Position numbers and translations under genes: made by a program. Shown one piece after another: positions 6,200 to 36,204 of a stretch of 64,000 bases of DNA. A model generated the notes under the pieces. It ran no database searches and was not told the origin of the DNA. It worked only from the letters and a program-made list of their open reading frames with translations. The stretch lies in the NCBI GenBank assembly GCA_000002445.1, contig CP000071.1, positions 128,001 to 192,000 on the forward strand, in the 5' to 3' direction. Source of the DNA: Trypanosoma brucei (Eukaryota). Numbering within the stretch: position 1 is the stretch's first letter; the number at the start of each line of letters is the position of its first letter.

Positions 6200-6272
6200 A
6201 ATTTTTAAAAGGATTTTTGCCCGATTTTATAAAATCTGTTATTTGTGATAATTTGACATATTTCTTAATATA

Positions 6273-10171: not shown

Positions 10172-10845
10172 TTTAAACACTTGTAGTCCCCATAGTAGCT
10201 TCTAGCTTAATGATAGCGTACAACATAAAGAAATTCAATACATCCTTCTCCAAACATATATATATATATGTATGTGTGTGTTAATTTCCTTTAAACTTCA
10301 CTCCCCTCACTTCCTTATATACCAAACTTCCATACCTTATCTAACCCCATATGTTAAGTGTTACATTACTCCTAATTTTCAACGTTCCAGCAGTATTTCT
10401 TTCACGCTGTTCATAATTCTATAAGGCACCGCCCATCATATAGGGTAAACTATTTTTAACCTTTTAATTCTATTTTCTTACTTTGTACTATGTGTACATA
10501 GGTTATTATATGATGTATATGAAAATTGGTAAAAAGAAGCAACAGTTATATTCAATTCCGAGAACACCTCATGGTGTAAATATAAGTTTTTAAAACTAAT
10601 GATACCATTCGTTACGACACAAATATCCTCTCGAATATTACAACAATCTTATTTATACCTTTAAATTCTTAATAAATAAATAATTATATTATCGACAGTA
10701 TTTCGTGATTATTCTTTGACGAATTCTTTTGGTCCACCCATGACGTTACCGTCATACAACAATTTATTAAAAATAACATAAAATGCTTAGTAAAAAAAAG
10801 AAAATATTACCCTTATTTTCGTGTAATTTCCCATTGTTTCGCTTT
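10172..10845. repeat. Duplicated segment X, copy 1 (the 3' flank and last ~18 codons of gene A). The second copy is at 13218-13855.
   Basis: Near-identical strings in both copies: cttgta[g/a]tccccatagtagcttctagcttaatgatagcgtacaacataaagaaattcaatacatcc... through ...aaaatattacccttatttt. Confidence 0.8.
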
Positions 10846-11618
10846 AATGGACTTCGAACAACTTCATCATCATAATTTTCTTCATCATCTTCACCACTAT
10901 TACTTTCGTTTCCTTCCCCTATTGATTTTCTTCTTTGCATTCTTCCACGATATTTTCCTTTTCCCCCCTTACTACTATCCTCTTCATCCTCATCCTCATC
11001 CTCGCCCTCATCTTCTTCCTCGTCCTCCTCTTCATCCTCATCGTCTTCATCGTCTTCATCGTCTTCATCGTCGTCTTCCGTCCATAATCCTCCGTATGGT
11101 CCAACAATTTCTACACCCCGCACTCTTTGAATCTTCTCAGGGGTGAGGTAAGTGACAATACATTTTCCATGCACTGTACCCCAATGATCGTAATCTCCAA
11201 CATTTTTGGCCCATTTTTTTTCAAATTTCAACATATCCTTGGTGCATTTCGCAGCTTTGCTTCTCGTTAGTGGAAAGGTCCCATTTAGTTGACACACGGG
11301 ATTTATCCCCAAAAAATTCCAGCCTTTCATTGTTCTTCCCACAGATTCGAAGCTCGTATGATTCCATCCCTTTTTCGAATAGGCCAAAGCAATGCCACCC
11401 TCCTCACCCCCTCCGCAGTGCATCTTCCCCCACCTTATCCTCTGACCACCTCTTTCGCAATAAAACCGCATATGTCCACCTTTTTCAAATGCGGCGCACA
11501 CCTCGTCCAGTGATAATGAATTCCTATAGAGCGCATACATTTTGAGAAGTTCCCAAAAAGAGGCTTCAGCAGAGGACCCGAGAAAGCCGAGAATGAGCGC
11601 CAGTACTATGGTTTTCAT
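10767..11618 (-). CDS. Cassette gene A, copy 1: a 283-aa predicted secreted/surface acidic protein. Signal peptide MKTIVLALILGFLGSSA, Cys-containing N-domain, long D/E run, basic stretch, hydrophobic C-terminal tail (GPI-signal-like). Family unknown.
   Basis: ATG verified. The 17-aa N-terminus and ~18-aa C-terminus are identical to the ORF at 13813-14628. The internal ~240 aa are only distantly similar, though the Cys/Trp spacing is conserved. Confidence 0.6.
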   Translation of the reverse strand: MKTIVLALILGFLGSSAEASFWELLKMYALYRNSLSLDEVCAAFEKGGHMRFYCERGGQRIRWGKMHCGGGEEGGIALAYSKKGWNHTSFESVGRTMKGWNFLGINPVCQLNGTFPLTRSKAAKCTKDMLKFEKKWAKNVGDYDHWGTVHGKCIVTYLTPEKIQRVRGVEIVGPYGGLWTEDDDEDDEDDEDDEDEEEDEEEDEGEDEDEDEEDSSKGGKGKYRGRMQRRKSIGEGNESNSGEDDEENYDDEVVRSPLKRNNGKLHENKGNIFFFLLSILCYF

Positions 11619-12296
11619 ATTGATCTCCTACTGACAAACACAGAAAAAATGCCCATATATTTTACCCAATACTCACTAACGTATTCGATATACCTTCTCC
11701 CATGGTTGTAAGTAATTTTAGAAGAAAAGAAAAATAACAATTATCAAAAGGTTATATAACGCTCTTTTATTAGTTACTCCCTCTCGGCACTCATAATCCT
11801 CATCATCGGCCTCATCGCTGTTTTCACCTTTACGCCTGCATATTTTGGATTTACTCTTTTCACCTTTAACCTTTGAAACTTTAGTCTCCACAATTACCTC
11901 TTCCTTCTTTCGTTTTTCTTTTTGATATCCAAACTCTTTTACACGATTCTTTTCTTCGCATTGATTTAAATCTTCATCCTCTTCAGTTGCATCATACCTG
12001 GCAAAAGGCACATTTTCACTAGTGTTTGGCATTTGGGATTCCATAATGACGGACTTTATCTGAGTGCTTTCTTTGCTGCAGTTCCCTCCTATTCGTTTGC
12101 ATGTGCTTTCCATAGCACTTCCTGCAAGAGCCGCAAAAATGGTGGAAACAATTTGAGTGCCTACGCTTACACCTTGAGGTGGCGAGTAAACATGGTTCAA
12201 GGCTATGATGCAGTGATTCTGATTTCTTAAACGCCACACCCGCATTGGACCAGTAGCTTCTGTACGCGGGGTTGCCGCGAAATGCGCAGGCGCACA
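11571..12296. repeat. Duplicated segment Y, copy 1 (gene A signal-peptide codons, the A-B intergenic region and the 3' two-thirds of gene B). The second copy is at 14581-15297.
   Basis: agaggacccgagaaagccgagaatgagcgccagtactatggttttcatattgatctcctactgacaaacacag... is identical in both copies. Confidence 0.8.
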
Positions 12297-12662
12297 ATCG
12301 TTTATTGGTTCAACGATTATGGTTCGCCGCCTGCTCACCCGGCAGCATGGGTTGTAACCGCGACCACGAAAGGTGTCATTTACAAACTTGGCCCCGGGGT
12401 CTGAGAGGTGACGCTTCCAGTCTTCTAACGTCCATTGCGTAGGCAAAAGGTACATTCTACCGTCCTCTCCTCTAGAACACAATGTTATGTTCCACCCCTG
12501 CTCTGATTTTCGGATTTTGCTGTCAAAGTTACATGCTACAATAACACTTTCACCATCGATAAACCAAAAGGCGTGGCAATTCCTCACTCTGTTATATTCC
12601 TCACCATTACAGAGTGAGGAAAATAAAAGTATTATTAAAATAGCGCCTATCTGTTTACACAT
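11718..12662 (-). CDS. Cassette gene B, copy 1: a 314-aa predicted secreted/surface protein. Signal peptide MCKQIGAILIILLFSSLCNG, Cys-rich N-domain, E/K-rich acidic-basic region, hydrophobic C-terminal tail LLIIVIFLFF. Family unknown.
   Basis: The ORF-track start at 12671 is TTG; the first ATG is at 12660-12662. The C-terminal ~175 aa are duplicated, nearly identical, at 14728-15255. Confidence 0.55.
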   Translation of the reverse strand: MCKQIGAILIILLFSSLCNGEEYNRVRNCHAFWFIDGESVIVACNFDSKIRKSEQGWNITLCSRGEDGRMYLLPTQWTLEDWKRHLSDPGAKFVNDTFRGRGYNPCCRVSRRRTIIVEPINDCAPAHFAATPRTEATGPMRVWRLRNQNHCIIALNHVYSPPQGVSVGTQIVSTIFAALAGSAMESTCKRIGGNCSKESTQIKSVIMESQMPNTSENVPFARYDATEEDEDLNQCEEKNRVKEFGYQKEKRKKEEVIVETKVSKVKGEKSKSKICRRKGENSDEADDEDYECREGVTNKRALYNLLIIVIFLFF

Positions 12663-13217
12663 CAAGAACAATTCTGAGGGCGTAAATTTTTAGAGGCAGT
12701 GAAGCAACAGATTGTGCACCACAACGTGGTTTAGATCTTTGGTTTCTAAAGGTAGTAGTGATAGTAAAGCAAACCAACATTGTGGAGTAAAGAAAGAATG
12801 AGCTCAGAGCAAAATAGAAAATGATGTGAGGTGTAATTTATATTTTCGTGAGATAGAGGATTTTTAATTTTTTTTTGTTGGAAAAAATTCCAAAGAGAAA
12901 ACTTTTTCAAATTGTAGTTTCCACTTCCAACCCTGATTCTTCTATTTTCAAAATTAAATATATGCAGAGCGGCACAAATCACCACCTACTATTCATTACA
13001 ATCATCTACAAATGTTGTGGTAAGTTATACCAAATGTAATACCGTTTTTATAAAACATAAACACATGATAATTACGCTCCGTTGCTTTCAATTAAAATAT
13101 CGAGTAATTCTATAACAGAATAGTCAACATTAAAAAAGAACTCTATCAAATTACGAAAAATCACACAAAAGGAACAATATAACAGGAAGTACCCATCCTG
13201 AAAACGCGGCACTTTTC

Positions 13218-13855
13218 TAAACACTTGTAATCCCCATAGTAGCTTCTAGCTTAATGATAGCGTACAACATAAAGAAATTCAATACATCCTTCTCCAAACA
13301 TATATATATATATGTATGTGTGTGTTAATTTCCTTTAAACTTCACTCCCCTCACTTCCTTATATACTAAACTTCCATACCTTATCTAACCCACCATATGT
13401 TAAGTGTTACATCACTACGAATTTTCACTGTCCCAACAGTATTTCTTTCACGCTGTTCATAATTCTATAAGGCACCGCCCATCATATAGGGTAAACTATT
13501 TTTAACCTTTTAATTCTATTTTCTTACTTTGTACTATGTGTACATAGGTTATTATATGATGTATATGAAAATTGGTAAAAAGAAGCAACAGTTATATTCA
13601 ATTCCGAGAACACCTCATGTTGTAAATATAAGTTTTTAAAACTAATGATACCATTCGTTACGACACAAATATCCTCTCGAATATTACAACAATCTTATTT
13701 ATACCTTTAAATTCTTAATAAATAAATAATTATATTATCGACAGTATTTCGTGATTATTCTTTGACGAATTCTTTTGGTCCACCCATGACGTTACCGTCA
13801 TACAACAATTTATTAAAAATAACATAAAATGCTTAGTAAAAAAAAGAAAATATTA
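13218..13855. repeat. Duplicated segment X, copy 2
   Basis: See copy 1; roughly 95% identical by eye, with small indels. Confidence 0.8.
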
Positions 13856-14628
13856 CCCTTATTTTTTTGAGGACTTGCGGTACCTTGTTTTACCAGGTTT
13901 TGAAAATCTTCATTATCATTCGCATATTCATCATCGGCATCAGCACCATGTTTGTCATCTATTCCTTCTTCGTGTGCATTCTCACTACTCAATATCGTTT
14001 TTCGTTTTTTTGCGGTTCTTTTTCTCTTTTTGTGTCGCCTTTTTTTTTCAACTTCAAGTTCTCTAGTCATATTCTCTTCTTCATTCCTGCTCTCTTCTGG
14101 CTCGTCGTCCTCGTTAACTTCCACTGCTTCTCCTTCAGTTGAAAGAATGTCAAGAGGACGAGTGGTGATAATGCACTTCCCTTTCGCAGGATCCCAGCTC
14201 TTGTACCTATTACCATTTTTTACCCTTCGCTCCATCTTTTTTAGCGACTCGTTTGTGCATTGGGTGACCGGAACCTTAGGTAATTCAACTTCGTCATCAA
14301 TGGTGCACTCTGGATTCACTCCCAAATAAATCCAGTCATCCATATCTTGTTCCAGCAATATGTGCTTCTCGTAAGACTTCCACTCGTTTGAATAGGAAGC
14401 AAAAACATTCCCCTTTTCGTCGACACCGCAACTCATTACCTTCCAAATCGGCAACTCATTCCCCCTATGGCAAAACATCTGCATACCCCTGTCATCTGCA
14501 AACGCGGAGCACAACCGTTTGGGTGTCCCGAGGTCATCGTAAAACAAGTGCTTAATTTTATCCCATTCCTCTTTATCCGCAGAGGACCCGAGAAAGCCGA
14601 GAATGAGCGCCAGTACTATGGTTTTCAT
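13813..14628 (-). CDS. Cassette gene A, copy 2: a 271-aa paralogue of gene A with the same signal peptide and C-terminal tail but a strongly diverged mature region
   Basis: ATG verified. MKTIVLALILGFLGSSA... and ...KNKGNIFFFLLSILCYF are shared with copy 1. The core aligns only by pattern (C-AF...F-C-RG...W...CG...E-G...YS...W...LG-NP-C). Confidence 0.6.
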   Translation of the reverse strand: MKTIVLALILGFLGSSADKEEWDKIKHLFYDDLGTPKRLCSAFADDRGMQMFCHRGNELPIWKVMSCGVDEKGNVFASYSNEWKSYEKHILLEQDMDDWIYLGVNPECTIDDEVELPKVPVTQCTNESLKKMERRVKNGNRYKSWDPAKGKCIITTRPLDILSTEGEAVEVNEDDEPEESRNEEENMTRELEVEKKRRHKKRKRTAKKRKTILSSENAHEEGIDDKHGADADDEYANDNEDFQNLVKQGTASPQKNKGNIFFFLLSILCYF

Positions 14629-15297
14629 ATTGATCTCCTACTGACAAACACAGAAAAAATGCCCATATATTTTACCCAATACTCACTAACGTATTCGATA
14701 TACCTTCTCCCATGGTTGTAAGTAATTTTAGAAGAAAAGAAAAATAACAATTATCAAAAGGTTATATAACGCTCTTTTATTAGTTACTCCCTCTCGGCAC
14801 TCATAATACTCATCATCGGCCTCATCGCTGTTTTCACCTTTACGCCTGCATATTTTGGATTTACTCTTTTCACCTTTAACCTTTGAAACTTTAGTCTCCA
14901 CAATTACCTCTTCCTTCTTTCGTTTTTCTTTTTGATATCCAAACTCTTTTACACGATTCTTTTCTTCGCATTGATTTAAATCTTCATCCTCTTCAGTTGC
15001 ATCATACCTGGCAAAAGGCACATTTTCACTAGTGTTTGGCATTTGGGATTCCATAATGACGGACTTTATCTGAGTGCTTTCTTTGCTGCAGTTCCCTCCT
15101 ATTCGTTTGCATGTGCTTTCCATAGCACTTCCTGCAAGAGCCGCAAAAATGGTGGAAACAATTTGAGTGCCTACGCTTACACCTTGAGGTGGCGAGTAAA
15201 CATGGTTCAAGGCTATGATGCAGTGATTCTGATTTCTTAAACGCCACACCCGCATTGGACCAGTAGCTTCTGTACGCGGGGTTGCCGCGAAATGCGT
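14581..15297. repeat. Duplicated segment Y, copy 2
   Basis: See copy 1. Confidence 0.8.
14728..15297 (-). pseudogene. Cassette gene B, copy 2: a 5'-truncated copy retaining only the C-terminal ~175 codons
   Basis: It is nearly identical to 11718-12296. Sequence similarity ends at ~15297. The upstream B reading frame hits TGA immediately, and no signal-peptide region is present. Confidence 0.7.
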
Positions 15298-18200
15298 AAT
15301 TGGGCTCCGACGTCAGCCCGGGACTGAACATTCTTGCTGCCACCAGGCAAATGGCATTTGCCTTTTATGTGGAAGCGCCCATACTGTCAGTGCTTTCGCT
15401 TCTCTACCATACGTTCTTTCCTTTGAAATTCCAGTGTTTCGTTTGTGCTTCAACTGTACTCTAAATGAAAATATAGTACCTATAGGGTGTTAGTCATATA
15501 ATTATGTTAAAGTACTATATTATATTTTTTACATGACAACGGTGAAGTGTTCAACATGTTTATGTCCAACGAGAGTCGCCGATGACGACGAGTACGCCAG
15601 ATGGCTGCGAGGCCCATATTGGGTCGAAAACCAAGATCTTGAGGGTGCTGTGGGTCGCATTAGCAGGTTGTTATTATTATCGCTTGCTCTCGTCTGGCAG
15701 TCGGTTACGGAAGATAATTTAGCCCTAACGGTGTCATATAATAATCTTACCAATTCAATGAGCTACGCTACTCCACTCTCTACACTCCTGCGCCTGTGTT
15801 TGGTTTTTGTGTCAACTTTAGATGGAAATGCTTTAGTGAAGCGGTCTATCATCCGCTTCTCAGTTTTAACTGTGGAGAGTTTTCCTTATCAAGCACCACA
15901 CGATCACGACTCCGGTATGTTTACTAACTTTCATCCCCTTTTGTTAATATTTATTTTTTGCAACCACCATGTGGCAAAGTGGATATGAGCTGCTCCTGTC
16001 TCCATCATTTCGCCATTGCGCCCTGTAATCACCCTTTCTAAATGTTGAATCACTTCTCGAGGACTCCTCGAAAAAAAAAAACCCTGACCATCACCATTCC
16101 CTCTCACTAACTCCCCTTCAAACTCTTATACATAGAGCGTGTAGCTGCACAAGACGGTGTTACACGTATTCGTCCGCCACGCGCAAGGAGAGCCTGCATC
16201 TCAACACTTTCAACCGTCAGCATTATCAGCTGTTTGACCACGGGCATCCCATGAAAATGCTTTCAAACTTCATGCAGGACGAACCAATCTCGGTGGAGCT
16301 GTAGTCGCTATGCACTTATGATTATACAAATGCACCCCTCGTTGTATTTCCAGTTGGCTTCCAAAACACACGAAAAAAAGGAGAGTGAATATGAAATATT
16401 CGAATCCATCACCGACGCATGAGCATTTGTAGTTGGAGCAGGCGCCAATGTCAACGATTCCTCCACAAGTATATAAAGATATATTATTTCACTCACCGGA
16501 AGTATTCATAGAAAGCAAGAAAAAGCATTAAGAGACCACACCTCAGGAGTCTTCACGCTGGAAAGGCTACTCCGCACATTCTTTACGGGCGCAATTGGCA
16601 CGTTCATGACCTTTTACCGCCCACCACCGAGAGGGGCATGTGGCTCCCAGGCGGTATTGTAGAAAAAAAATGCGGCGACAGCATCGAGTTAAAAACAAAC
16701 ATAACACACGTCCATACAAAACAGGGACACAGAAAGTAATTGTCCCTGCACCCTTTCTCAAATGAGAGAGATCTTCATTGGCTGTCAGAAAGAAAAAAAA
16801 AACATCACTGCTTAGTAAGAGGCATCATTTTGAAGAAAGCTCATAATTCAACAAATTCGTTCTTACAATAAAAACGACTGAAATAACAGTTTCTACAAGA
16901 TGTAGGCAGCCGTACACTAGCGTGATGATATGAAGCATGGTATTCGCTCAGGCTTCCGATCTATGAGGAAGTAGAAAAATAGCGGCAAACGCTTGATGTA
17001 GATAATTATTCACAAGGTCCGAAAATAGTATAGGATTCTCTCAGGTAATATCGAATGAACTCATACTCCAATTTGAGCCACAGGAAACACTTGTGCCAAA
17101 CACGTTTCTGCAAACCATCAACCTTTATTCAAGAGGCGGTGGGCACATTTATACCAACGGAAAGCGCGCTGCCTGTAGGCGAAAATATGAAATTCCCGCA
17201 ACAAGCCATGAGATGCACCAACAACGTCTTACACAGGAGGCGAATGTGTTATGCAATACGCTATTGAAGAAGGGTTTTCACGGCCGCTAGCGGAGGGAAT
17301 GCCACCGAACGGCTTCAGGATGACAATAATTCTTGGGATCAACCGTGATCATCTACAGGGAGCGTGGGGAGTTAAATTGGGGCTGGCGACTGAGCCAAGT
17401 GGTGACCATCGTTTTATCGGGTCCGGAGCAAACCATATTGGAGTACTTACCGATAAGTCTTCGTGCACACGCTAAAGAAACAGGTGCAAACCTGCCGGTG
17501 CGGCGAGAATTGGGCGAACGAAACCGTGCGATTGTCAGCAACAATAACCCCGTCATAAAGGAGGCAATTCCGAAGAGGATGAATGGGCTGGTGTCAAATT
17601 TTGGAAGCGAAAATTATGGAGTACACGCGGGGAAATAAAGCGGTATGAAAACGGAAAGGGCGCTGATCAAACTGGAGATGGAAAAAAAAACCTGGGTAAC
17701 GCGCAGGTCTCAAATCCTTTGGGCCAACCACTCGGTCCAATAAAGGAGCAGGAGGTACATGCAAAGAACGAGGGTTATAGCTATCAAAAATGAGGGAACA
17801 GGAATGATATCGGCCTCAAGGAACTGAACGGGCAAAGAATGATCATGCGCTCTGCCTGACAGTGGTGAAAGCGCATATTTAGCTTTTTTTTTTTGCAGAG
17901 GGGGATGCAGTTGTCAGACGCGCTGAGTTCGAGCTAGCAAGAGAAGAAAAAATAAGGCAAAGCGCCGTGAGCAACAGCGCGCATCCCAAAGAATGAGAGT
18001 TGTTCCGACGTATTTAATGAGTTGTAGCTTAACCCAGGAAGTGAGAGAGCGGACCGCAAAGCAGACGACCGGCGTACAGGACACATGAAAAAGATTAACG
18101 AGAGGCAGAAGTAGCGGGGGGAGGGAATTTAGAAGGAACACCTGACACGGGGCCGACTGCCAAGTTCAGACGGGTCCATCACGCTGGACGCGCTTTCGTG

Positions 18201-20506: not shown

Positions 20507-21635
20507 TCAGTTATGCTTCCGCATTGGGAAACGCAGATCCTCCAACTTCAGTAGATTTTGTAATCCGTTCAAATTATTTAGGTTCATACAGTCAAATATG
20601 TCCAATTTTTTTTTGAAATTACAAAGAATCTTTATGGCATCGATATTTTTAAGACCTACACATCCCGAGAGATCCGGTCTTTCTAAACTCCTTAAATAAC
20701 GTAGTTCACTAATATTGTTCAATTTGGTACATCCGGATAGGTAAAGCGTTTTCAACCCAACAACTTTTTGAAGCCCATCCAGATCCTTTAGATCCGTACA
20801 ATGGTTTAGGTAAAGCTCTTTCCAATTTCGGACATCCCCGCAGAAACTTCGCGCCACCCACCGACGCACAACCGTTGAGATTTGTTGCTTTTACTTCATT
20901 TTTTTTTTTTCGATGCACAACTCACTTACGTTCCTCAGATTGTCACGATCTGATAAACTCAACGCATCCAAATTACGCGCATCCGCGAGACCACGCACTT
21001 CGCGACGACTTGGGCACCCTTTGACTACGAAGGACTTCAATCCGACGCAGTCACTCACATTGATCTCCGTTAAAGTTTCGCACCGCTCCACATGGAGAGC
21101 AACAAAATTATCTGCACGGCACAAATTCGCGTTTTTTTTAAAGGTCGCGTACACTTTTAGTTTGAGAACTCCATCCGTTTCAGAACCGATGAAGAACTCT
21201 ATATTTTGTGTTGTATCGTGAAACCCACGAATTGAGTACATGTCCACACCATCCCCAACTATTTGGTGTCATGCCGCGGCCGCAACCTGCTCTGTGGCTG
21301 CATTTCCCCGCGAGCGGAAGAATTGTTTGATTAGGCGTCGTCGCCTCATGGTTGGGACGTTTCGTCATCTCCCTTTCGGTTCTGGCACCATTCTCAGTTT
21401 GCTTCCGCCTGACCGGCAGTTCCACTTCACCAGGTTCAGTTTTGTTCTTATTCTGTGGCGCATCTGCTGCTTCCATCCGCGGATCCCTCTGGTTTTCCCC
21501 CACCTCCGTTGTTTTGATTGTGAGTCTCCTTTTTTTCCCCCTTGAAAATGAGATGATCTTGCCGTTCACAAATGCAGAGTAGCCCACCAGCATTATCATT
21601 AACAGACATTCTCCTACTACTGATGATGTTTCCAT
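20507..21635 (-). pseudogene. Leucine-rich-repeat protein (ESAG8/LRRP-like) pseudogene, broken into three overlapping reading frames
   Basis: LRR units of the ESAG8 type (LxxLxLSGCxxLxNIxxL, e.g. LKTLYLSGCTKLNNISELRYLRSLERPDLSGCVGLKNIDAI; LTEINVSDCVGLKSFVVKGC) appear in ORFs 20507-20869 and 20891-21247. A third frame covers 21180-21635. Confidence 0.6.
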
Positions 21636-23634: not shown

Positions 23635-26600
23635 TTATAGCAGTAAAGTATCTGATGCGTCGATATTCTTACTGTTGGAAGAAAATATGACGGCCCCAAT
23701 GCGGTTCAACACGCTTCGAATGGACGAAAAGGACGGAAAAACTACTGCACCTGAGACCAACTGAGGCACCTGCCGCAACAATTCCATCATAACAGCTTCA
23801 CAGCACGCGCTCCATACGTTGGCCAGTGAAGCGCCATGGAAGTCCTTGCGGTGCGTACCGGGAAGAGTTATTTCAGCACGGTGAATGGAAGGGAAAATGT
23901 TACCGACGTGAGATCCTTTAAAAATAATGTCCTCAGGCGGCCGGTCACTCCTATCGTACGTGAAGAGCACAAATATATCGGATATTTTTATAAAGTGGAG
24001 CTGCACACTCATGAATTTAAGTAGCTTCCAACAACTAAGCATGCCGCGCTGCACACGTACCACATTCTCCAAATCCTTGTTAGTTTCTGAGGATTTGTAG
24101 CGTCTTCCTAGCCTCCGCATTTGATACACAAAGGTGTCCGATAGTTCCAATTCAAGAGTCGTGACGTGACTGTACACGGAAGAGGCAAGAATAGCGTTGC
24201 CGACGATTCGTGCGTCGCGAACAGTGAGATCAATACTGAAGGGTTTTATTTCATGGCTCATCTTCCCGTTGTAGGTACCATTGCTGCGCATATTGGACAC
24301 TGTGCATTGAACTGTCACCCTCTTGTGTTCGTAAACCAACCACGACTCACATCGGCCCACCACGCAGTTAATTGGAATGTTATCCCCATCCTCCACAAGC
24401 AAACCAATACCACATGCTTTCACACCAGCACGCAACATCATCTCCTCTACAGGCGTCTCAACTATCACAGCGCTACCAACCAATGTTCCTAAGCCACTTC
24501 GCAGCGAAGAAATAGCGTATGTTGTCACAAGGGTGATAACCCATCCGACCGTGTCCTTCCTTTGGTGAATGAAGGCTGCTACATCGTTTCCAATTTCTAC
24601 CTCTGTTCCGTGGGACAGAAGGACCCGGAATCTCCGTGAAGAGTTAACACCTTCACGAAGAACCAATACCACTTCGCCACTAGTTAAGGAATGAGGAGTG
24701 TACGATGAGACACTCATACGGGGTACCTTCTCATAGTTGTGCGATGTTAAGTTGACGACAGTCACGTATGGGGGGCGTGGTTCACTGACTGACACCACAG
24801 TTGGTTCGAAGCGGTCCTCCTTGAACACGCGAATCTCATGGTGTGTGTCTCCGCACTCGATGAAAGCAGATGAGCATGTCTGTGGTAAGAGGCTCACCGC
24901 CACAGGCGCGCTAAATTCGATGTTTACAGTTGTGTCGCTACCCTTTGCGCTCCATGCGAATGCAAAATTTACAACTTCATCATTCGCTAGAGCAGTGTAA
25001 GATACCGTCCCCCCCGCGGGAACTGTGAAACAGTGTGGCAACTCATCGGTAAACAACCCACCCCTTCTCGTTACGTGTCTTACTTGGAGGTCCCGTAAAT
25101 CATCCATGTTGGTAAAAAGTAGAGGTGGTATTAGCTCCATGAAGTAACCGAAGCGATCGACTCGAGACCGCATGAGAAAAAGATGAGGCTGTCCGAGATG
25201 TGTGCCTTTGACGCTCATCGGTGCGCAGAAGAGCGGGCGTTCCTCAAAATCTTCGGTAACTTCAAAAGAAACGGAACTCAGTTCTCCCGCATGTAATACC
25301 AGGCGAGTGTGAAGGGGTAGATATGCAAAGTTTCGGCCTGTTGCGTGACTCAATGCGCCATCCCGGATCAAACCAGTTGGTTTCCCTACCTCGGTGGTAA
25401 ACCTCACATCCGTACCAGAGTTATTTTTAAGCCCAAAGACGCCATAGGGGCGAACGGTGCAGACACTAGGCGCAGTGCAGCTGCCAACATCCTGCTGTCC
25501 AATATCCAGTTCAAAGAAGCGCTTGTAGGGAAATTCCCTGTGCCTCATCAGAACCCTCTGTCTTAACGATCCTTCGTTGAAACACGCTTCAACACGATCA
25601 GTACTGAAATAGATGTCTGAGTAAACTATACTTTCAAAAACATAATCCACCCTTGGACCAAAGGGATCGTGCTGCAGCGTAAAAAAAGTGCCGCTCGGTT
25701 CGATAATGCATTCCTCAACAACAAGATCACTGATTAGTAGTAACACTTTCATATTAAAACGGGTTCCATTATGAATGCCAAGTCGTGCGGGAGATAGAAA
25801 CATCGTGAGAACGCCGCCACTCAGAAGATAAGTGACATCAATATATACTGGCACGTCTCCCAGCACAAACTTCCTGAGACGCCCAATAGAATCATCCCCA
25901 CGCTCTTCGGCCAACTTAAATAAAATTCTCAATGAGCCTTCGCTAAGCAATTGCTGCTCAGATGTGCAGGCACTATTGGAGGACATCAAGCAAAGAGATA
26001 TGTCGTCCCTAGAAATAAGGTGAATGGGGACAGGTAAGGTTTCGCCTGGAGGAACTTCCAGCTTACCGACCGAGGAATCGATAGCCCCAAGCACCACACC
26101 ACATGGTAACCTGTTGCTAATTTGAAAACTGGTGCGGAAGCTCACACGTTGAGAGAGGGTGTGGTCGAGTACCTGCCTAACAATTCGAACCTTCTCTCCA
26201 GATGTTAATGTAACGACACACGCCCTGCGTAGCACATCCGTGAGTTCTTTCTCTGGGTTGGGGTCTCGGTAACTCTCAAAATGCGATATTCGGCAGTTGT
26301 CAACGGAGTGAATGCAACGTGGAAAGACAAGATGGTTACCATAAAATGTTTGGCGCTCCTTAACCACAACGCGCTCCCCGTCATCGACGTCCAAAACCAG
26401 TGATACCCCAAGCTGGTTAATTACTTCCACCGTGGGGGGTACCGTAAGTCCCCTTCCAAAATTTCCCGGAAGGAAGGAGGATGCAATGAATTTCATTTGC
26501 TCTATCGAAACAGACAGATCGAGTGAAGAGAGTAAAGTTTCACATGCAACGTGTTTCGAATCTAACAAACGAGCAACTGCTGCGACTGACAGAGGGCGCT

Positions 26601-29600
26601 GCAACGCGCGTTTGTAGGACTGTGAGCAGAAGTCCCACAATGTTAATTCCTGTACACCAAATCGGAAATCCACATGCGCTTCTCCTCCATCAGCTTCAAC
26701 TTTCGATCGGAGTAGGGACTTGTTAACGGCCATATGCGCAACCGATGCACCACCGCGAAGGAGGATATCGATGGGGAAGGCAGACACAGCAATAGACCAC
26801 TTCCCCTCCCCGAAAAGATATTTCAAGCGTTTATAACACAGCAGAGGCGATGTCCTTGACCTTCCGTTGAAACCTTTGCGACAACTCGTCCCGCCAATGA
26901 GCTGCTGCATTGTTTCAACCAAACCCATGGGGACCCCAACACGATCAACTTGAAGTGTGGCGTTCACGGTACCAATATGCTCTTTACACCTTGTTGCGAC
27001 GTTTACAGCGGAAGTGGTGCTAGAAAAAACGCGCGAGCAAACGCTGCCATCAATGTAGTCGACCCAACTGTTTTGTAAGCAGAGTTGAAGCCCCAATCCG
27101 TAAGAGGTGGAACACAAACAGTCACCCACGAGGGTAAACGCAAATGTAAGTTGACAACCCGTAGGAAAAAGAAGTTCCCCTCTACTATGGTGAATCATCA
27201 GATGAAGTCCATGAGGCACTATGCAACGTAAAATGTCTCTCACATTAGGAGCATCAAGTTGCGTTGCTTCATGGGTTTCAAGTTTTTTGATTGTGTCATC
27301 ACAGTCCAAAAGAAGAAAAGATCCACTTTCATCCTCAACTGCAATAGAACTCCGAATCAACGTGGAGATGCGACAACGTTGAAAAAGGACATGAGTTCCC
27401 CGACATACTACTAAGCGAGCACTTCCACGAACAGCTAAAAACTCGCACTCCACAACGTTAACAACTTTGCCCGGGCAATTAAAGAAACACGAGCCGATCA
27501 TATCGAGGTTATATGACACGTCATGCAGGTAATCTGCTGTGATAACGTGCTTTCTTGATAGTGAAGTAGCCATGCGGCGTATATCCAATAGTGCATCAAA
27601 CAGTTGCCGAACCGGGTACGGTGTGTCGCACAAGTTTGTCTTGAGTTCAATGCATTCCAACTCAACAAGCGCCTGTTTTTCAAAGGTTGATAAAACGGAT
27701 GTTGCCTCCGCACCGTATTTACGGGCGTCCTGCGTGGAAGCTGTTGAGGCGAGAACAAATTTCAACGCCTCCAATTTCAATGAAATAACATCCCCACCAT
27801 ACATTGTTATTGACTGCACATTCAGTTTCAAAGGGGTCAAACCACCCTCCGCATGCACTCCAAGCACACACATCGCCTCTTTTCTGAAGAGAAATGAGGC
27901 AGAAAGATCACGGACTTCCACCTTCAAACAAGAGGAAGGTAAAAGAGGGTGAAGCACATCAGCGTCCACAGCGGGTATGTACAGTTCCTTTGTGTATGCA
28001 CCGCAGCTGTTAATCAATAGCGCGGGTGGTGAATCACGTAGTTCATGAAAAAACTCACTGAAACGATTGAAAAAGGAAAGAGCGCTTTCACTGCCCGCAT
28101 TTGGGATCCTGCATCGACATTGCAGGACCCCAGATTCGCCAAATGACAAGACGCAAGTTGTGTTGCAGAGTGCTATTGCAATTTCGCAACTGTTATGCGG
28201 AAACGCGCAGCACCATTCCCTCCACGCATGTGGACTTACGAAAAGTGCGCCGCACGATTCCATCGTTGAAGTAATTTGCTTAAATTCCCCAGCAGTCAGC
28301 CGATCAACCCGCACGCAAACGGAACCCACACTGATTAGGACACAAGCCACTGGTGGAAGAAAGTTATGTGTTAAAGCAGAGTGCAACCGGGAACAAAAAG
28401 AAACACGAAGGGGTGCAACCTCCACTGCGTCTAAAACTTGAACTGTCTCGACCGAAAAATGAGACATTGGGTGGCTCAATCCCAACTGTAAATTTGATGC
28501 AGAGAGCAATTTCTGCGTCGAGAACACTCCCAGCGTAACTTCCACGACGCTCGACGACGCCAGTGCGCAAAACAAACGACCCTTCGATAGCGAAGCCACC
28601 CGGCACTTGGCGCCGCGAGGAAAATCAATGATGAAAAAGGGTTTGCTAGCATCCTCTGTTGTAAGCATAAATGATCGCAGATGAATGCAAAGAACATCCT
28701 CGTCACTCACATTCTTAGAGGAAAAAATACGCGTTTCTCCAATAGTTATGACGCTTTCCGTTGGTACAAACCAACACTGAATGCACTTTATGCAAATACA
28801 CTGGCTTTTTTTCTTCCTCCTCGATACCTGATGAATATCTGCAGCGGTAAAAATTTCTTCCCAGCTCGAAATAGAAACGTTGGCGTTGCTCGATCTCTGT
28901 GTGCGCTTGGTGGCCCCTTTATACGACTCATAGCCGACCCAAGCAACTTCTGACCATTCGCTACAAATATGCTTAAGGTACTCCCAAAATGCAGGGCAAA
29001 TATTAAACTTTAACTCAGAAACAATGATGTTACCCTCATCTCCCATTCGCACATTGATGGGCGCAACTAATTCGTGGGCCCCCTCACCAAAGTGTGCGGA
29101 CAGGGCGTGTAGCGAAACTCCAATTTGTGAGCCCCTCGGAGCATCTCCTTTAATGATTATTAGCGAGAGTTTCTCACATTCGACATTGATATCGTCGATA
29201 ATTAGCCGGAGGAAGGGTAGAACAAAACTCATCTTCTCCATGGTTCCACGAGATGATGGTGCTGGTGCGGTTCTTGATGTTGCAACCATCTCCACAAAGA
29301 GAAGTGGTAGAATGGAGGCTACCGGTTTGATTGTTTCGAGTAGTCGCGGTGTCGATAATGCAATGCGAGTAGGTTCTACATTTACCTTTAGGGAACACGC
29401 TCCCTTCGTCTTGCGTTTCTGAAAGCTAAAAAACGGCACGTCAGAAGCACCCGGTAGACGCAGAGTTTCCCACATGCTGTCATCTTTTAGTGATACGTCC
29501 CCAATGTGAACATTAGTCTCGTCCACTCGGCTAACAAGGGTAATCTCACCCAGAAGCATAACAGTTCCCGTTGGAAAGTAAATGTACACTTCACCAATGT

Positions 29601-30966
29601 CCACATGAATGGAAAGCATTATTGCATCTACAAGCTGCCTCCCTTTACCTCCATCACTTGCTATATCAGAGGTGACTGATGTCCTGGCATATGTTTCCAT
29701 CACCGTGCGTCTAAGGAATAAAATGACATCCCTGTAGCGAACTTTCTGCTCGATTTCAACCATTGCGTCTAGTTTTGCTGAAATGTCGCCCACTTGGTGG
29801 CAGTAATTCAGTAGTTGAATATATGCACGCCGCGCTTCTGCAAAAGAGCGGATATGAGATAAAGTAAAGTTGTACCTCCTCCTTCGATCTCGAAGGAGCT
29901 CCATCACGCAACAATGCGCATAATTCCACAAGGATGCGGAGCCACGGAGATGTATATGGGGGTGGCAGTACACAGGAAGCTCCAAAAACGAGCGACTCGC
30001 TGCTAAATAAGCGTGCAAGGCGAGGAGGACGTCGTGGTTAACTAGCAGAGACACCTGTTGCTCCAATGATATGGTGACGTTTTGCCTACACAAAACTCCA
30101 CGCAGGAATACAGATGTAACACAAACCGCTGCAACATCAGTGGTCACGAACGTGGCGCACAACTCTCCAGCAAACGCCTTAGCAGTCACGTCACTGACGG
30201 TTGCCTTCACAACTTTTATCTCTTCAGTTCCGTTACAAGCACATGGCTCCACATGTACTGCAAGATCCCGGAAGACTATTTCAAGTCTTGTGTTCGAGTT
30301 GGGTCCAACCGATAACATAAGAGTGAGGACATCTACATTAACAAGAATCTTTCTGTCCACCAAACCGGACATAGTACTCTTGACCACGCCGTATAGGTAT
30401 GATATTATACCTTCCTCCCCCTCTACGGCCTCATTGCCCCCCGGGTCTACATAAGTTGAGGATGAACTAACTTCGCTACAACAAGACATGCACTCATCCT
30501 CGTCATCATGTGCGTCCGCATGCTCCTTCGCGTGATCAATAGGTTTGGGGCTTGCAGTCGACGAACTAACACGTGAGTGACTTCTACTTGAGTTACATGG
30601 TGATGTAGCACAGTTCCTATTCCCAAGGATGCTTTGTTCTGTTATACCGCTTCGTATGATGTCTGAACTCAGTTCCGTTTCAGTATCAGAAGTGGCCAAA
30701 TGAGAGCATGTGTTCAAATGTAGCCTCGCTTCTTTGGCATGAACAACAAGAGCATCTTTGGATGATGGCCACGGTATGTCGAAGTGAATTTCCGTTACGT
30801 GACCTGATTCGACAGGGAGTTGAGTGATATCTCTCAGTGCATCCTTCTTGAGCTTGACGTTGCGAATTCGAAGTGACCTTTTGGTTAAAGAACTCTCCAC
30901 ATCGAAAGGGTTCACATCCGCCACTTTCGCGACGCGGGCCAACAAAAACGAAATAATATGTTGCAT
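23635..30966 (-). CDS. Giant (2443 aa) Chorein-N-domain protein, VPS13/ATG2-family bridge-like lipid-transfer-type protein
   Basis: The N-terminus MQHIISFLLARVAKVADVNPFDVESSLTKRSLRIRNVKLKKDALRDITQLPVESGHVTEIHFDIPWPS matches the Chorein_N pattern (…LLNRYLGEYVENL…GDVVLENLxLKxxALDxLxLPxxVKxGHIGxLxLxIPW). It is one uninterrupted 7.3-kb ORF. The ORF-track start at 30990 is GTG; the first ATG is at 30964-30966. Confidence 0.65.
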   Translation of the reverse strand: MQHIISFLLARVAKVADVNPFDVESSLTKRSLRIRNVKLKKDALRDITQLPVESGHVTEIHFDIPWPSSKDALVVHAKEARLHLNTCSHLATSDTETELSSDIIRSGITEQSILGNRNCATSPCNSSRSHSRVSSSTASPKPIDHAKEHADAHDDEDECMSCCSEVSSSSTYVDPGGNEAVEGEEGIISYLYGVVKSTMSGLVDRKILVNVDVLTLMLSVGPNSNTRLEIVFRDLAVHVEPCACNGTEEIKVVKATVSDVTAKAFAGELCATFVTTDVAAVCVTSVFLRGVLCRQNVTISLEQQVSLLVNHDVLLALHAYLAASRSFLELPVYCHPHIHLRGSASLWNYAHCCVMELLRDRRRRYNFTLSHIRSFAEARRAYIQLLNYCHQVGDISAKLDAMVEIEQKVRYRDVILFLRRTVMETYARTSVTSDIASDGGKGRQLVDAIMLSIHVDIGEVYIYFPTGTVMLLGEITLVSRVDETNVHIGDVSLKDDSMWETLRLPGASDVPFFSFQKRKTKGACSLKVNVEPTRIALSTPRLLETIKPVASILPLLFVEMVATSRTAPAPSSRGTMEKMSFVLPFLRLIIDDINVECEKLSLIIIKGDAPRGSQIGVSLHALSAHFGEGAHELVAPINVRMGDEGNIIVSELKFNICPAFWEYLKHICSEWSEVAWVGYESYKGATKRTQRSSNANVSISSWEEIFTAADIHQVSRRKKKSQCICIKCIQCWFVPTESVITIGETRIFSSKNVSDEDVLCIHLRSFMLTTEDASKPFFIIDFPRGAKCRVASLSKGRLFCALASSSVVEVTLGVFSTQKLLSASNLQLGLSHPMSHFSVETVQVLDAVEVAPLRVSFCSRLHSALTHNFLPPVACVLISVGSVCVRVDRLTAGEFKQITSTMESCGALFVSPHAWREWCCAFPHNSCEIAIALCNTTCVLSFGESGVLQCRCRIPNAGSESALSFFNRFSEFFHELRDSPPALLINSCGAYTKELYIPAVDADVLHPLLPSSCLKVEVRDLSASFLFRKEAMCVLGVHAEGGLTPLKLNVQSITMYGGDVISLKLEALKFVLASTASTQDARKYGAEATSVLSTFEKQALVELECIELKTNLCDTPYPVRQLFDALLDIRRMATSLSRKHVITADYLHDVSYNLDMIGSCFFNCPGKVVNVVECEFLAVRGSARLVVCRGTHVLFQRCRISTLIRSSIAVEDESGSFLLLDCDDTIKKLETHEATQLDAPNVRDILRCIVPHGLHLMIHHSRGELLFPTGCQLTFAFTLVGDCLCSTSYGLGLQLCLQNSWVDYIDGSVCSRVFSSTTSAVNVATRCKEHIGTVNATLQVDRVGVPMGLVETMQQLIGGTSCRKGFNGRSRTSPLLCYKRLKYLFGEGKWSIAVSAFPIDILLRGGASVAHMAVNKSLLRSKVEADGGEAHVDFRFGVQELTLWDFCSQSYKRALQRPLSVAAVARLLDSKHVACETLLSSLDLSVSIEQMKFIASSFLPGNFGRGLTVPPTVEVINQLGVSLVLDVDDGERVVVKERQTFYGNHLVFPRCIHSVDNCRISHFESYRDPNPEKELTDVLRRACVVTLTSGEKVRIVRQVLDHTLSQRVSFRTSFQISNRLPCGVVLGAIDSSVGKLEVPPGETLPVPIHLISRDDISLCLMSSNSACTSEQQLLSEGSLRILFKLAEERGDDSIGRLRKFVLGDVPVYIDVTYLLSGGVLTMFLSPARLGIHNGTRFNMKVLLLISDLVVEECIIEPSGTFFTLQHDPFGPRVDYVFESIVYSDIYFSTDRVEACFNEGSLRQRVLMRHREFPYKRFFELDIGQQDVGSCTAPSVCTVRPYGVFGLKNNSGTDVRFTTEVGKPTGLIRDGALSHATGRNFAYLPLHTRLVLHAGELSSVSFEVTEDFEERPLFCAPMSVKGTHLGQPHLFLMRSRVDRFGYFMELIPPLLFTNMDDLRDLQVRHVTRRGGLFTDELPHCFTVPAGGTVSYTALANDEVVNFAFAWSAKGSDTTVNIEFSAPVAVSLLPQTCSSAFIECGDTHHEIRVFKEDRFEPTVVSVSEPRPPYVTVVNLTSHNYEKVPRMSVSSYTPHSLTSGEVVLVLREGVNSSRRFRVLLSHGTEVEIGNDVAAFIHQRKDTVGWVITLVTTYAISSLRSGLGTLVGSAVIVETPVEEMMLRAGVKACGIGLLVEDGDNIPINCVVGRCESWLVYEHKRVTVQCTVSNMRSNGTYNGKMSHEIKPFSIDLTVRDARIVGNAILASSVYSHVTTLELELSDTFVYQMRRLGRRYKSSETNKDLENVVRVQRGMLSCWKLLKFMSVQLHFIKISDIFVLFTYDRSDRPPEDIIFKGSHVGNIFPSIHRAEITLPGTHRKDFHGASLANVWSACCEAVMMELLRQVPQLVSGAVVFPSFSSIRSVLNRIGAVIFSSNSKNIDASDTLLL

Positions 30967-35208: not shown

Positions 35209-36204
35209 TTAGTCCTCCTTCTCTTCGTTCTGATCGTCGTGCTTACCCTGTAGAGTTTCTTCCTTGCTCTGTCGCTCTAACTCTTTCTCCAACTCATTTG
35301 CAAAAGCCTCGTCATCGGCAGTATTTGTTGCGTTTGACCCCGCCGCAGCCTGTCCTTTATTAGCCTCCTGAAGAGACAAAAGCAACGCCCGACGTAACAT
35401 CTCCTCTTCGGTCATATTTTCCAGGCTTAGTGCCTCCTCATCCATGTTTATATCCGTTCTCTCCACCGTTTCACTTTCAGCAGCATTAGAATTTAAAGCC
35501 GCCGCCGCCGCCTGACGTCGCTCCTCCTCTTCAAGCGACATTTGAATGGCGAGCACCATTTCCGGGTCCATGGTCGGATCCACGGAGAAACCTGCAGAAG
35601 AACCATTGAAGCCTCCTCCACTTACACTGCTGTCCTCCCCCATAAATATGGCGCTCGACATCAAACTGTCAATGAGAGGAACTTTAGCTGGTACGCTTAA
35701 GAACCGTGAATTTCCATTATTACTGAGCCTCTCAACGAATGCAGTCAGGCGCGGAACGTTCGAAGGTACACCTACACTTACAACATCGACTGCTACGCTT
35801 TCTTTACGAAGTTTCTTCGCCAACTTCTCCAACTCACCGTCTGTTTCTCCTAGCGGAGTACCAATAAAGGCGACGATACGTTTTTCTGCACGCGGGTTAG
35901 TTCGGTGGCTTAAGGCAAGGCACGCAATTTGCAGCCCTTTGGAAAAGTGGCATTGTTTTCCACTGATTGAAATCTTCGACATGGTGGACATAACGCGATC
36001 CACATCTGAGGTGAGGGTTTCAAAGACTGTACAGGCATTGCCTCCGAGTGTCAAGAAACCCACAGTGTTCTCAGCGTTGGCTGATGTTTTCGCATTGGCC
36101 AACAAAGTTGCCGCCTCCTGTACAACAAAGAAACGATTGGGATGTTGATCTCCATTTCTCATAAACTCCGAGGAATCTAGACAGAGAAAGCAAGCCTCAG
36201 GCAT
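35209..36204 (-). CDS. RPN10: 26S proteasome regulatory subunit Rpn10 (S5a/PSMD4): vWA domain plus ubiquitin-interacting motifs
   Basis: The N-terminus MPEACFLCLDSSEFMRNGDQHPNRF matches the Rpn10 N-terminus (…CxDNSEYMRNGDxxPxR). UIM-like EEEMLRRALLLSLQE and MVLAIQMSLEEEE. ATG verified. Confidence 0.85.
   Translation of the reverse strand: MPEACFLCLDSSEFMRNGDQHPNRFFVVQEAATLLANAKTSANAENTVGFLTLGGNACTVFETLTSDVDRVMSTMSKISISGKQCHFSKGLQIACLALSHRTNPRAEKRIVAFIGTPLGETDGELEKLAKKLRKESVAVDVVSVGVPSNVPRLTAFVERLSNNGNSRFLSVPAKVPLIDSLMSSAIFMGEDSSVSGGGFNGSSAGFSVDPTMDPEMVLAIQMSLEEEERRQAAAAALNSNAAESETVERTDINMDEEALSLENMTEEEMLRRALLLSLQEANKGQAAAGSNATNTADDEAFANELEKELERQSKEETLQGKHDDQNEEKED

What the first reader, a model, noticed from the sequence alone, without database searches (positions are those of the whole stretch)
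23635..30966. 2443-aa Chorein-N protein is short for a VPS13 and long for ATG2: candidate divergent bridge-like lipid-transfer protein
Only the first ~70 residues are recognisable (Chorein_N). The rest of the 7.3-kb ORF shows no motif I can name, although it is uninterrupted and sits as the first gene of the housekeeping polycistron. By size it could be an ATG2, BLTP2 or short VPS13-like protein. Kinetoplastid repertoires of these repeating-beta-groove proteins are poorly characterised.
Basis: partly seen in the sequence, partly recalled or inferred. Interest (0 to 1): 0.5.

Follow-up and report, generated by a model that had tools for sequence, protein, structure and literature searches.

The report
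Short divergent VPS13 lipid-bridge protein
This 2443-residue Trypanosoma brucei gene encodes a very divergent, shortened member of the VPS13 family of lipid-transfer bridges between organelles, not an ATG2, because it has the six-repeat adaptor-binding domain found only in VPS13.

Summary
The ORF is real. It lies on the minus strand at 23635-30966, encodes 2443 aa, and is 100% identical to a T. brucei protein that databases name only "N-terminal region of Chorein".

Single-sequence Pfam finds almost nothing. Profiles built from kinetoplastid orthologues resolve it:
- **N-terminus.** It matches solved VPS13 structures (E 1e-10), including a helical segment beyond Chorein_N. Atg2 scores only E 0.41.
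- **Flanking strands.** These match beta-groove lipid-transfer folds: BLTP1, Vps13, TamB and ATG2A.
- **C-terminus.** It aligns with the post-VAB region of VPS13D and ends in helices, with no PH domain.

VAB repeats are the published criterion separating VPS13 from ATG2. This is therefore a short VPS13 paralogue of roughly 8-10 groove units. It has been found only in kinetoplastid-type sequences and keeps its gene neighbourhood in Leptomonas. It is distinct from the canonical 526-kDa TbVPS13.

The middle 1000 residues were not modelled, so a continuous groove there is inferred. Lipid transfer itself is inferred by homology. Interest is moderate. It is a candidate stand-in for the ATG2 reported missing from trypanosomatids, but that is untested.

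The parts
23635..30966 (-). Complete coding sequence, 2443 aa plus stop codon. Probably Tb927.8.540; that identifier is inferred from gene order and was not verified.
   Evidence: ORF list and translation. 100% identical to P0001. The upstream neighbour is a PMSR gene, and Tb927.8.550 is annotated as peptide methionine sulphoxide reductase (PMC3326296). LRR fragments lie downstream, and Tb927.8.530 is a leucine-rich repeat protein (PMC2837033).
30691..30966 (-). Residues 1-92: Chorein_N core, the start of the first groove unit.
   Evidence: Family profile against PDB: VPS13 9yrm_B, VPS13A 9yg4_B and Vps13 6cbc align to profile positions 16-85. hhalign against VPS13D residues 1-341 gives probability 93%. 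Weak Pfam ATG2 and VPS13_N hits.
30382..30690 (-). Residues 93-195: low-complexity acidic and Ser-rich loop inserted in the first groove unit.
   Evidence: Gappy, poorly conserved columns in the 12-sequence alignment. No counterpart in the VPS13D alignment.
30466..30507 (-). Residues 154-167 (DDEDECMSCCSEVS): a short linear motif conserved inside the disordered loop, with the pattern acidic run-[F/Y/L/C]-x-S-C. It is FFAT-like in some orthologues.
   Evidence: S161 and C162 are invariant in 12 of 12 sequences, inside an otherwise unalignable loop. Any function is inferred only.
29677..29931 (-). Residues 346-430: VPS13-type helical segment after the first groove units (W-x-YA...R-x-R-Y-N-F...ARRxY-x-LL).
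   Evidence: Second matched stretch against VPS13 9yrm_B residues 364-448. The distant family member P0028 matches Pfam VPS13_N positions 304-409 at E 2.8e-8. The stretch is rich in invariant residues: W347, Y349, R364, N366, R379, Y382.
26527..29676 (-). Residues 431-1480: unassigned beta-rich middle region, inferred to be about 5-6 further groove units.
   Evidence: No significant similarity to VPS13D or to PDB sequences. Beta-amphipathic windows make up 13% here, against 5% in shuffles and 19% in the confirmed groove parts. Not modelled.
24529..26433 (-). Residues 1512-2146: VAB (VPS13 adaptor-binding) domain. Six beta-sandwich repeats with conserved Asn at 1517, 1618, 1733, 1848, 1953 and 2072.
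23833..24438 (-). Residues 2177-2378: post-VAB groove strands, long amphipathic beta-strands with short helices between them.
23644..23826 (-). Residues 2381-2441: C-terminal helices at the position of the ATG_C region. No PH domain follows.
   Evidence: Helices 2381-2406, 2416-2427 and 2435-2441 in the model, at low confidence. The protein ends at residue 2443. Pfam ATG_C and PH are not detected.

Best explanation
The gene encodes a lineage-specific, strongly diverged and shortened paralogue of VPS13, a bridge-like lipid-transfer protein.

**Shown here**
- A VPS13-type Chorein_N start, followed by the VPS13-type helical segment.
- A six-repeat VAB domain.
- Groove-type beta-strands on both sides of the VAB domain.
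- A helical C-terminal end with no PH domain.

**Inferred by homology**
- The roughly 1600 non-VAB residues form one continuous hydrophobic groove of about 8-10 units, probably 15-20 nm long.
- The Chorein_N end docks on a donor membrane, most likely the ER.
- Phospholipids slide along the groove.
- The VAB domain hooks the far end to an organelle-specific adaptor protein.
- The C-terminal amphipathic helices contact the acceptor bilayer.

The protein is distinct from the canonical 526-kDa TbVPS13 (Tb927.8.5580), so it presumably serves a different contact site. Which organelle pair that is remains unknown.
For: - **N-terminus.** The family profile hits VPS13 9yrm_B at E 9.9e-11 with two collinear stretches, VPS13A at 7.8e-8, Vps13 6cbc at 3e-6 and VPS13C at 2e-3, against Atg2 at 0.41. 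hhalign against VPS13D residues 1-341 gives probability 93%.
- **C-terminus.** Collinear with VPS13D 3858-4142 at probability 82-87%.
- **Selection.** Full-length orthologues of 2369-2682 aa exist in Trypanosoma, Leishmaniinae and Angomonas, and the gene neighbourhood is conserved in Leptomonas.
- **Criterion.** VAB repeats identify a VPS13 rather than an ATG2 (PMC7613979).
Against: - No Pfam VPS13 or ATG2 model reaches its curated threshold, and the full-length and C-half scans return nothing.
- Residues 431-1480 show no detectable similarity to VPS13D or to PDB sequences and were not modelled.
- Sequence-level VAB similarity is weak: hhalign probability is 72% for the whole C-half and 1% for the VAB region alone. 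The VAB assignment therefore rests mainly on one AF2 model built from only 16 sequences.
- There is no PH domain, and the ATG_C region is very short compared with canonical VPS13.
- No localisation, interaction or lipid-transfer data were found.
Confidence: 0.82

Rival explanations
1. It is the divergent ATG2 orthologue of trypanosomatids, a lipid bridge feeding the growing autophagosome.
For: - The best single-sequence Pfam hit for the N-terminus is the ATG2 model: E 2.5e-4 here and 3.3e-8 in P0020.
- Its length is closer to ATG2 than to VPS13.
- It ends in helices without a PH domain, as ATG2 does.
- ATG2 is reported as not found in trypanosomatids (PMC3901119, PMC8161075, PMC10104450).
Against: - A six-repeat VAB domain is present. 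ATG2 has none, and VAB is the stated discriminator (PMC7613979).
- The family profile scores VPS13 at E 1e-10 against Atg2 at 0.41, and it matches the VPS13 helical segment after Chorein_N.
- All ATG2 Pfam scores fall below the 50-bit cut-off and cover only the Chorein_N region that the two families share.
Confidence: 0.04
2. It is a VPS13 by descent that has taken over the ATG2 role. It would supply lipid to autophagosomes in organisms that lost ATG2, recruited through its VAB domain or C-terminal helices.
For: - ATG2 is reported missing while ATG8, ATG9 and ATG18 are present (PMC3901119, PMC8161075).
- The architecture converges on ATG2 in size and in its PH-less helical end.
- A canonical VPS13 already exists for the usual VPS13 roles (PMC5256885).
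Against: - There is no direct evidence of any kind.
- The absence of ATG2 was not re-tested here with profile or structure methods.
- Plant VPS13X is similarly short and lacks a PH domain, in organisms that do have ATG2 (PMC7613979). That architecture therefore does not imply ATG2 replacement.
Confidence: 0.1
3. It is a degenerate VPS13 relic that keeps the fold but acts only as a tether or scaffold, without lipid transport.
For: - Divergence is very fast, about 23% identity between Trypanosoma and Leishmaniinae.
- The middle region is unrecognisable by sequence.
Against: - The full-length ORF is maintained across kinetoplastids, with conserved gene neighbourhood.
- The beta-amphipathic signal in the middle region (13% of windows) approaches that of the confirmed groove parts (about 19%).
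- The Chorein_N end and the C-terminal groove strands are conserved.
Confidence: 0.06

Closest known systems
VPS13 family (yeast Vps13, human VPS13A-D); reference structures 6cbc, 9yrm, 9yg4 and the VAB domain 7u8t
   Same: - Chorein_N start plus the following helical segment.
- A six-repeat VAB domain with one conserved Asn per repeat, inserted between groove units.
- Groove strands continue after the VAB domain and are collinear with VPS13D 3858-4142.
   Different: - About 2440 aa, against more than 3000 aa in canonical VPS13s.
- Fewer groove units, an estimated 8-10 against 12 in VPS13A.
- No C-terminal PH domain and a much shorter ATG_C region.
- No Pfam model passes its threshold.
- Relatives were found only among kinetoplastid-type sequences: 23 hits in 1.84 billion cluster representatives.
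Plant VPS13X (At3g50380), as described by Levine 2022 (PMC7613979)
   Same: A short VPS13 with nine groove units, identified as VPS13 only by its VAB repeats. It lacks the PH domain, which is replaced by helices. Several of its groove units are not recognisable by sequence.
   Different: - No evidence of orthology, since no plant protein appeared in the profile search.
- VPS13X carries an extra lectin-like domain, and none was seen here in the modelled half.
- The kinetoplastid family has its own conserved acidic [F/Y/L/C]-x-S-C motif in the loop of the first groove unit.
Canonical T. brucei VPS13, Tb927.8.5580 (526 kDa; PMC5256885)
   Same: Same organism and same superfamily. Both presumably act as bridge-like lipid transporters.
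   Different: A different locus and about twice the size. It was not retrieved by the C-half profile of this family at E of 0.001 or better, so the two are distant paralogues.
ATG2 (yeast Atg2, human ATG2A/B; 6a9e, 8kbx)
   Different: ATG2 has no VAB domain. The N-terminal profile scores Atg2 at E 0.41 against 1e-10 for VPS13.

Membership tests
VPS13 | N-terminal Chorein_N domain of the VPS13 type, followed by the VPS13 helical segment | tested here: met
   Family profile A5 against PDB: VPS13 9yrm_B at E 9.9e-11, with two collinear stretches (16-84 and 243-329). VPS13A at 7.8e-8, 6cbc at 3e-6 and VPS13C at 2e-3. hhalign against VPS13D gives probability 93%.
VPS13 | VAB domain: six beta-sandwich repeats, each with a conserved Asn, inserted near the C-terminal end of the groove | tested here: met
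VPS13 | Continuous repeating-beta-groove rod from end to end | tested here: inconclusive
VPS13 | ATG_C region after the last groove unit | tested here: inconclusive
   hhalign of residues 2150-2443 against VPS13D 3858-4142 gives probability 82-87%, and helices are predicted at 2381-2441. Pfam ATG_C is not detected, and model confidence is low at the extreme C-terminus.
VPS13 | C-terminal PH domain, present in canonical VPS13 and absent in plant VPS13X | tested here: not met
   The protein ends at 2443, directly after the helices. The model shows no beta-sandwich after residue 2378, and Pfam finds no PH domain.
VPS13 | Pfam VPS13_N, VPS13_VAB or related models at their gathering thresholds | tested here: not met
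   No hits for the full-length protein or for the C-terminal half. VPS13_N scores at most 12 bits here and at most 32.5 bits in distant relatives, against an 80-bit cut-off.
VPS13 | Bulk glycerophospholipid binding and transfer between membranes | not testable with these tools
   Requires purified protein and liposome assays.
ATG2 | Chorein_N followed by about eight groove units with no VAB insert | tested here: not met
   A VAB domain is present. Levine 2022 uses VAB to separate VPS13 from ATG2 (PMC7613979).
ATG2 | Pfam ATG2 model at its gathering threshold | tested here: not met
   17-32 bits against a 50-bit cut-off, covering only the first 100-290 residues. Atg2 6a9e scores E 0.41 with the family profile.
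ATG2 | Binding to ATG18/WIPI and ATG9 at the phagophore | not testable with these tools
   Needs interaction or localisation experiments.
BLTP2 (Hobbit) / BLTP1 (Tweek/Csf1) | N-terminal transmembrane helix anchoring the protein in the ER | tested here: not met
   The N-terminus, MQHIISFLLARVAKVADVNPFDVESS, contains charged residues and aligns to the soluble Chorein_N of VPS13. PMC7613979 states that Hobbit and Tweek start with transmembrane helices.
BLTP3 (SHIP164) | Short groove with a C-terminal coiled coil and no VAB | tested here: not met
   A VAB domain is present. No SHIP164 hit appeared in the PDB sequence or fold searches.

The most novel reading that the evidence does not exclude
Trypanosomatids, for which reviews repeatedly report no ATG2, use this short, PH-less VPS13 paralogue as the lipid conduit for autophagosome growth. 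A VPS13-derived bridge would then have replaced ATG2 in a whole eukaryotic lineage, recruited through its VAB domain by a kinetoplastid-specific adaptor.
Probability: 0.1. Interest if true: 0.75.

Novelty: new member of a known kind. Interest (0 to 1): 0.4.

Why it matters
Databases label this protein only by its first ~100 residues. The trypanosome literature I could search treats Tb927.8.5580 as the parasite's VPS13.

Showing that kinetoplastids carry a second, cryptic VPS13 with an intact adaptor-binding domain matters in three ways:
- It adds a member to their small set of bulk lipid transporters.
- It gives a concrete handle, the VAB domain and its conserved Asn residues, for finding the organelle adaptor.
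- It supplies a testable candidate for the unexplained absence of ATG2 in these parasites.

It is also a further example, alongside plant VPS13X, that short PH-less VPS13 forms exist. These forms escape curated sequence models and need structure prediction to be recognised.

Tried and rejected
**Searches that gave nothing useful**
- Single-sequence Pfam and PDB searches of the full protein and of the C-terminal half returned nothing.
- A PDB profile search with the shallow 5-sequence alignment gave only marginal hits.
- The word-indexed protein search failed with the full-length 12-sequence profile and with the N-terminal profile. The first returned only the family itself plus one VPS13D at E 7e-4, and the second returned nothing, not even the family.
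- PDB profile searches with the C-half and full-length alignments found no VAB or groove match by sequence.
- hhalign of the middle region against VPS13D was not significant.
- The afdb50 fold library was unavailable.
- An exact-sequence look-up of the window protein in assemblies found no record.
- Searches for Tb927.8.540 in the literature and in the TrypTag supplements found nothing.
- No tandem repeats or Rfam families were found in the window.

**Failed model**
- The first AlphaFold2 run used a 4-sequence alignment and failed, with pLDDT 32. It was repeated with 16 sequences.

**Interpretations considered and rejected**
- ATG2 orthologue: rejected because a VAB domain is present.
- BLTP1 or BLTP2: rejected because there is no N-terminal transmembrane helix.
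- SHIP164: rejected because a VAB domain is present and no coiled-coil end was seen.

**Interpretation downgraded**
- A canonical FFAT motif in the acidic loop. T. brucei has Cys at position 2 of the motif, and five other orthologues have Leu, where an aromatic residue is required (PMC8077184).

Full report
**Observation.** The window holds a 7.3-kb open reading frame on the minus strand. The stop codon is at 23635-23637 and the first ATG at 30964-30966, giving 2443 aa. Its product is 100% identical over its full length to a Trypanosoma brucei (equiperdum) protein that NCBI and UniRef name only "N-terminal region of Chorein".

Every ORF of 200 aa or more in the window is on the minus strand, apart from three plus-strand ORFs that lie inside larger minus-strand ones. 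The unit is therefore transcribed from high to low coordinates. This gene is the last conserved gene of the block, not the first. Upstream of it lie genes for a peptide methionine sulfoxide reductase, an EF-hand protein and a VWA protein. Downstream lie leucine-rich-repeat fragments, ORFs without Pfam hits, a PAP2 gene and a retroelement.

Tb927.8.550 is the methionine sulfoxide reductase (PMC3326296) and Tb927.8.530 is a leucine-rich repeat protein (PMC2837033). The gene is therefore probably Tb927.8.540. This is inferred from gene order and was not verified.

**Why single-sequence methods see almost nothing.** Pfam gives no hit for the whole protein or for its C-terminal 1044 residues. The N-terminal 118 residues alone give only sub-threshold hits: ATG2 model 19 bits at E 2.5e-4, and VPS13_N 12 bits at E 0.037. 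A phmmer search of PDB sequences finds nothing.

The family evolves fast. Leishmaniinae orthologues are only about 23% identical to the T. brucei protein over the full length.

**The family.** I searched 1.84 billion cluster representatives exhaustively with a profile of the C-terminal half. Only 23 proteins came back at E of 0.001 or better.
- The named ones are all trypanosomatids: T. theileri, Porcisia and Angomonas. Leptomonas and Novymonas came from the first search.
- The unnamed ones come from sequencing-run and metagenome assemblies.
- Full-length members are 2369-2682 aa, plus one of 3161 aa.
- No canonical VPS13 was retrieved, so this is a distant, lineage-restricted family.

In Leptomonas pyrrhocoris the gene sits in the same order, VWA - 576-aa protein - PMSR - this gene. 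The genes are therefore positional orthologues.

**N-terminus.** I built a 12-sequence profile of residues 1-92 plus 196-430, leaving out the disordered loop. Against all PDB sequences it hits:
- VPS13 9yrm_B at E 9.9e-11
- VPS13A 9yg4_B at 7.8e-8
- Vps13 6cbc at 3e-6
- VPS13C at 2e-3
- Atg2 6a9e only at 0.41

The best hit has two collinear stretches. One is the Chorein_N core. The other is a helical segment at T. brucei residues 346-430 (W-x-YA ... RxRYNF ... ARRxYxxLL), matching VPS13 residues 364-448. A distant family member matches the same part of Pfam VPS13_N at E 2.8e-8. hhalign of the full family alignment against a fish VPS13D aligns residues 1-371 with VPS13D 1-341 at 93% probability.

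**The decisive region.** In the orthologue alignments, six Asn residues stand out at 1517, 1618, 1733, 1848, 1953 and 2072. They are spaced 101-119 residues apart, each in a h-x-h-x-N-x-[ST] context. They are conserved in 13-16 of 16 sequences. This is the known signature of the six repeats of the VPS13 adaptor-binding (VAB) domain. That signature is my recollection of Bean et al. 2018 and Dziurdzik et al. 2020, which I did not re-read.

Sequence comparison alone is weak but consistent.
- hhalign aligns the whole C-terminal half collinearly with VPS13D 2822-4161 (probability 72%). It puts the T. brucei Asn residues exactly onto the repeat Asn residues of VPS13D, in one of two registers.
- Compared repeat by repeat, repeats 2, 3, 5 and 6 each match their VPS13D counterpart best.

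**Structure.** A first AlphaFold2 run with four sequences failed, with pLDDT 32. With a 16-sequence alignment of residues 1440-2443 the model reached mean pLDDT 71.5. Confidence was mostly 70-90 through repeats 1-5 of the six-repeat region and lower, in the 50s and 60s, in the last repeat.
- Foldseek against the PDB puts the Chaetomium Vps13 VAB domain (7u8t) first, at E 1.5e-22, probability 1.00 and target-normalised TM 0.60-0.64 over 599-721 alignment columns. The next hit, the BLTP1 complex 9cap, is 16 orders of magnitude weaker.
- After the VAB domain the model shows long strands of up to 21 residues with alternating hydrophobic residues. Helices at 2381-2441 follow, and the protein then ends. 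There is no PH domain.
- The region 2150-2443 aligns with VPS13D 3858-4142 at 82-87% probability.

**Classification.** Levine (2022, PMC7613979) states that VAB repeats identify a protein "definitively as a VPS13 rather than ATG2". He describes plant VPS13X as a short form with nine groove units, no PH domain, and several sequence-unrecognisable units. The kinetoplastid protein has the same kind of architecture.
- It is not the canonical trypanosome VPS13. That protein is Tb927.8.5580, 526 kDa (PMC5256885).
- Hobbit and Tweek types are excluded because they begin with a transmembrane helix, and this N-terminus is a soluble Chorein_N.
- SHIP164 is excluded because a VAB domain is present.

**What is not shown.** Residues 431-1480 have no significant similarity to VPS13D or to any PDB sequence. 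A crude profile analysis found beta-amphipathic windows in 13% of this region. This compares with 5% in shuffles, about 19% in the confirmed groove parts, 7.5% in the VAB domain and 2.6% in the helical tail.

That pattern fits five or six further groove units, giving a total of about 8-10. It is still an inference. Lipid transfer, membrane partners and localisation are also inferred, and I found no experimental data.

**Mechanism proposed.** The steps below follow established knowledge of VPS13 proteins. None of them was tested for this protein.
1. The Chorein_N end contacts the donor membrane, probably the ER.
2. Lipids move along the hydrophobic groove.
3. The VAB domain binds an organelle-specific adaptor.
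4. The C-terminal amphipathic helices touch the acceptor bilayer.

**A conserved motif in the loop.** The disordered acidic loop of the first groove unit holds a conserved short motif: an acidic run followed by [F/Y/L/C]-x-S-C, with S161 and C162 invariant. In Leishmaniinae and some other members it reads like a phospho-FFAT motif for VAP binding. T. brucei, however, has Cys, and five other orthologues have Leu, at the position where an aromatic residue is required (PMC8077184). I record it as a lead only.

**Novelty and interest.** The gene and its Chorein_N label are already in the databases. I found no description of its assignment to VPS13 through a cryptic VAB domain, its shortened PH-less architecture, or its restriction to kinetoplastids. 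I rate it a new member of a known kind, of moderate interest.

The most novel reading still open is that it substitutes for ATG2. Reviews report ATG2 as not found in trypanosomatids (PMC3901119, PMC8161075, PMC10104450). I give this about 10%, for two reasons. Nothing here bears on it directly. Plant VPS13X also shows that this architecture coexists with ATG2.

Noticed in passing
window 30466-30507 (-), residues 154-167: A conserved short motif sits inside an otherwise unalignable acidic and Ser-rich loop: an acidic run followed by [F/Y/L/C]-x-S-C, with S161 and C162 invariant in 12 of 12 orthologues. In Leishmaniinae (EEDFKSCAG, EEEFASCAS) it resembles a phospho-FFAT/VAP-binding motif. T. brucei has Cys at the position that needs an aromatic residue.
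   Followed up: partly
window 23638-23652 (-), residues 2439-2443: The extreme C-terminus is conserved in nine of the ten trypanosomatid-like orthologues examined as [S/T]-x-L-[L/I/M]-COOH (DTLLL, TTLI, SSTLI, SSLLL, GSALI). Angomonas and two more distant members lack it; those two carry longer C-terminal extensions with a VPS13-like 'DVLGAP' motif. Its function is unknown.
   Followed up: no
window 300-4845 (-): Three consecutive ORFs of 706, 404 and 396 aa. The last carries endonuclease/reverse-transcriptase-type domains (Exo_endo_phos_2). This looks like an ingi-type non-LTR retroelement at the low-coordinate end of the window.
   Followed up: partly
window 6000-14700: A low-GC stretch (35-42%, against about 46-48% over the housekeeping genes) with strongly negative GC skew at 10-12 kb (-0.38). 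It holds a PAP2 phosphatase gene (7693-8691) and three ORFs without Pfam hits (10767-14628). The last of these has a signal-peptide-like start and a hydrophobic C-terminal tail. They probably correspond to the strain-variable Tb927.8.490-.520 genes described in PMC4288722.
   Followed up: partly
window 20507-21247 (-): Two adjacent short ORFs encode leucine-rich-repeat sequence (for example LKTLYLSGCTKLNNISELRYLRSLERPDLSGC), broken by a frame change or stop. This is probably a fragmented LRRP gene or pseudogene directly downstream of the VPS13-like gene.
   Followed up: no
window 35546-36148 (+), 52253-53032 (+), 56748-57464 (+): ORFs of 200 aa or more lie antisense to, and inside, larger minus-strand genes. 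They are most likely spurious shadow ORFs in a strictly one-strand transcription unit.
   Followed up: no
L001 (Leptomonas pyrrhocoris) 1541-17955: Gene order VWA/UIM - 576-aa protein - PMSR - VPS13-like is conserved with the window. In Leptomonas an amino-acid transporter gene follows, whereas T. brucei has the variable LRRP/PAP2/retroelement region there.
   Followed up: partly
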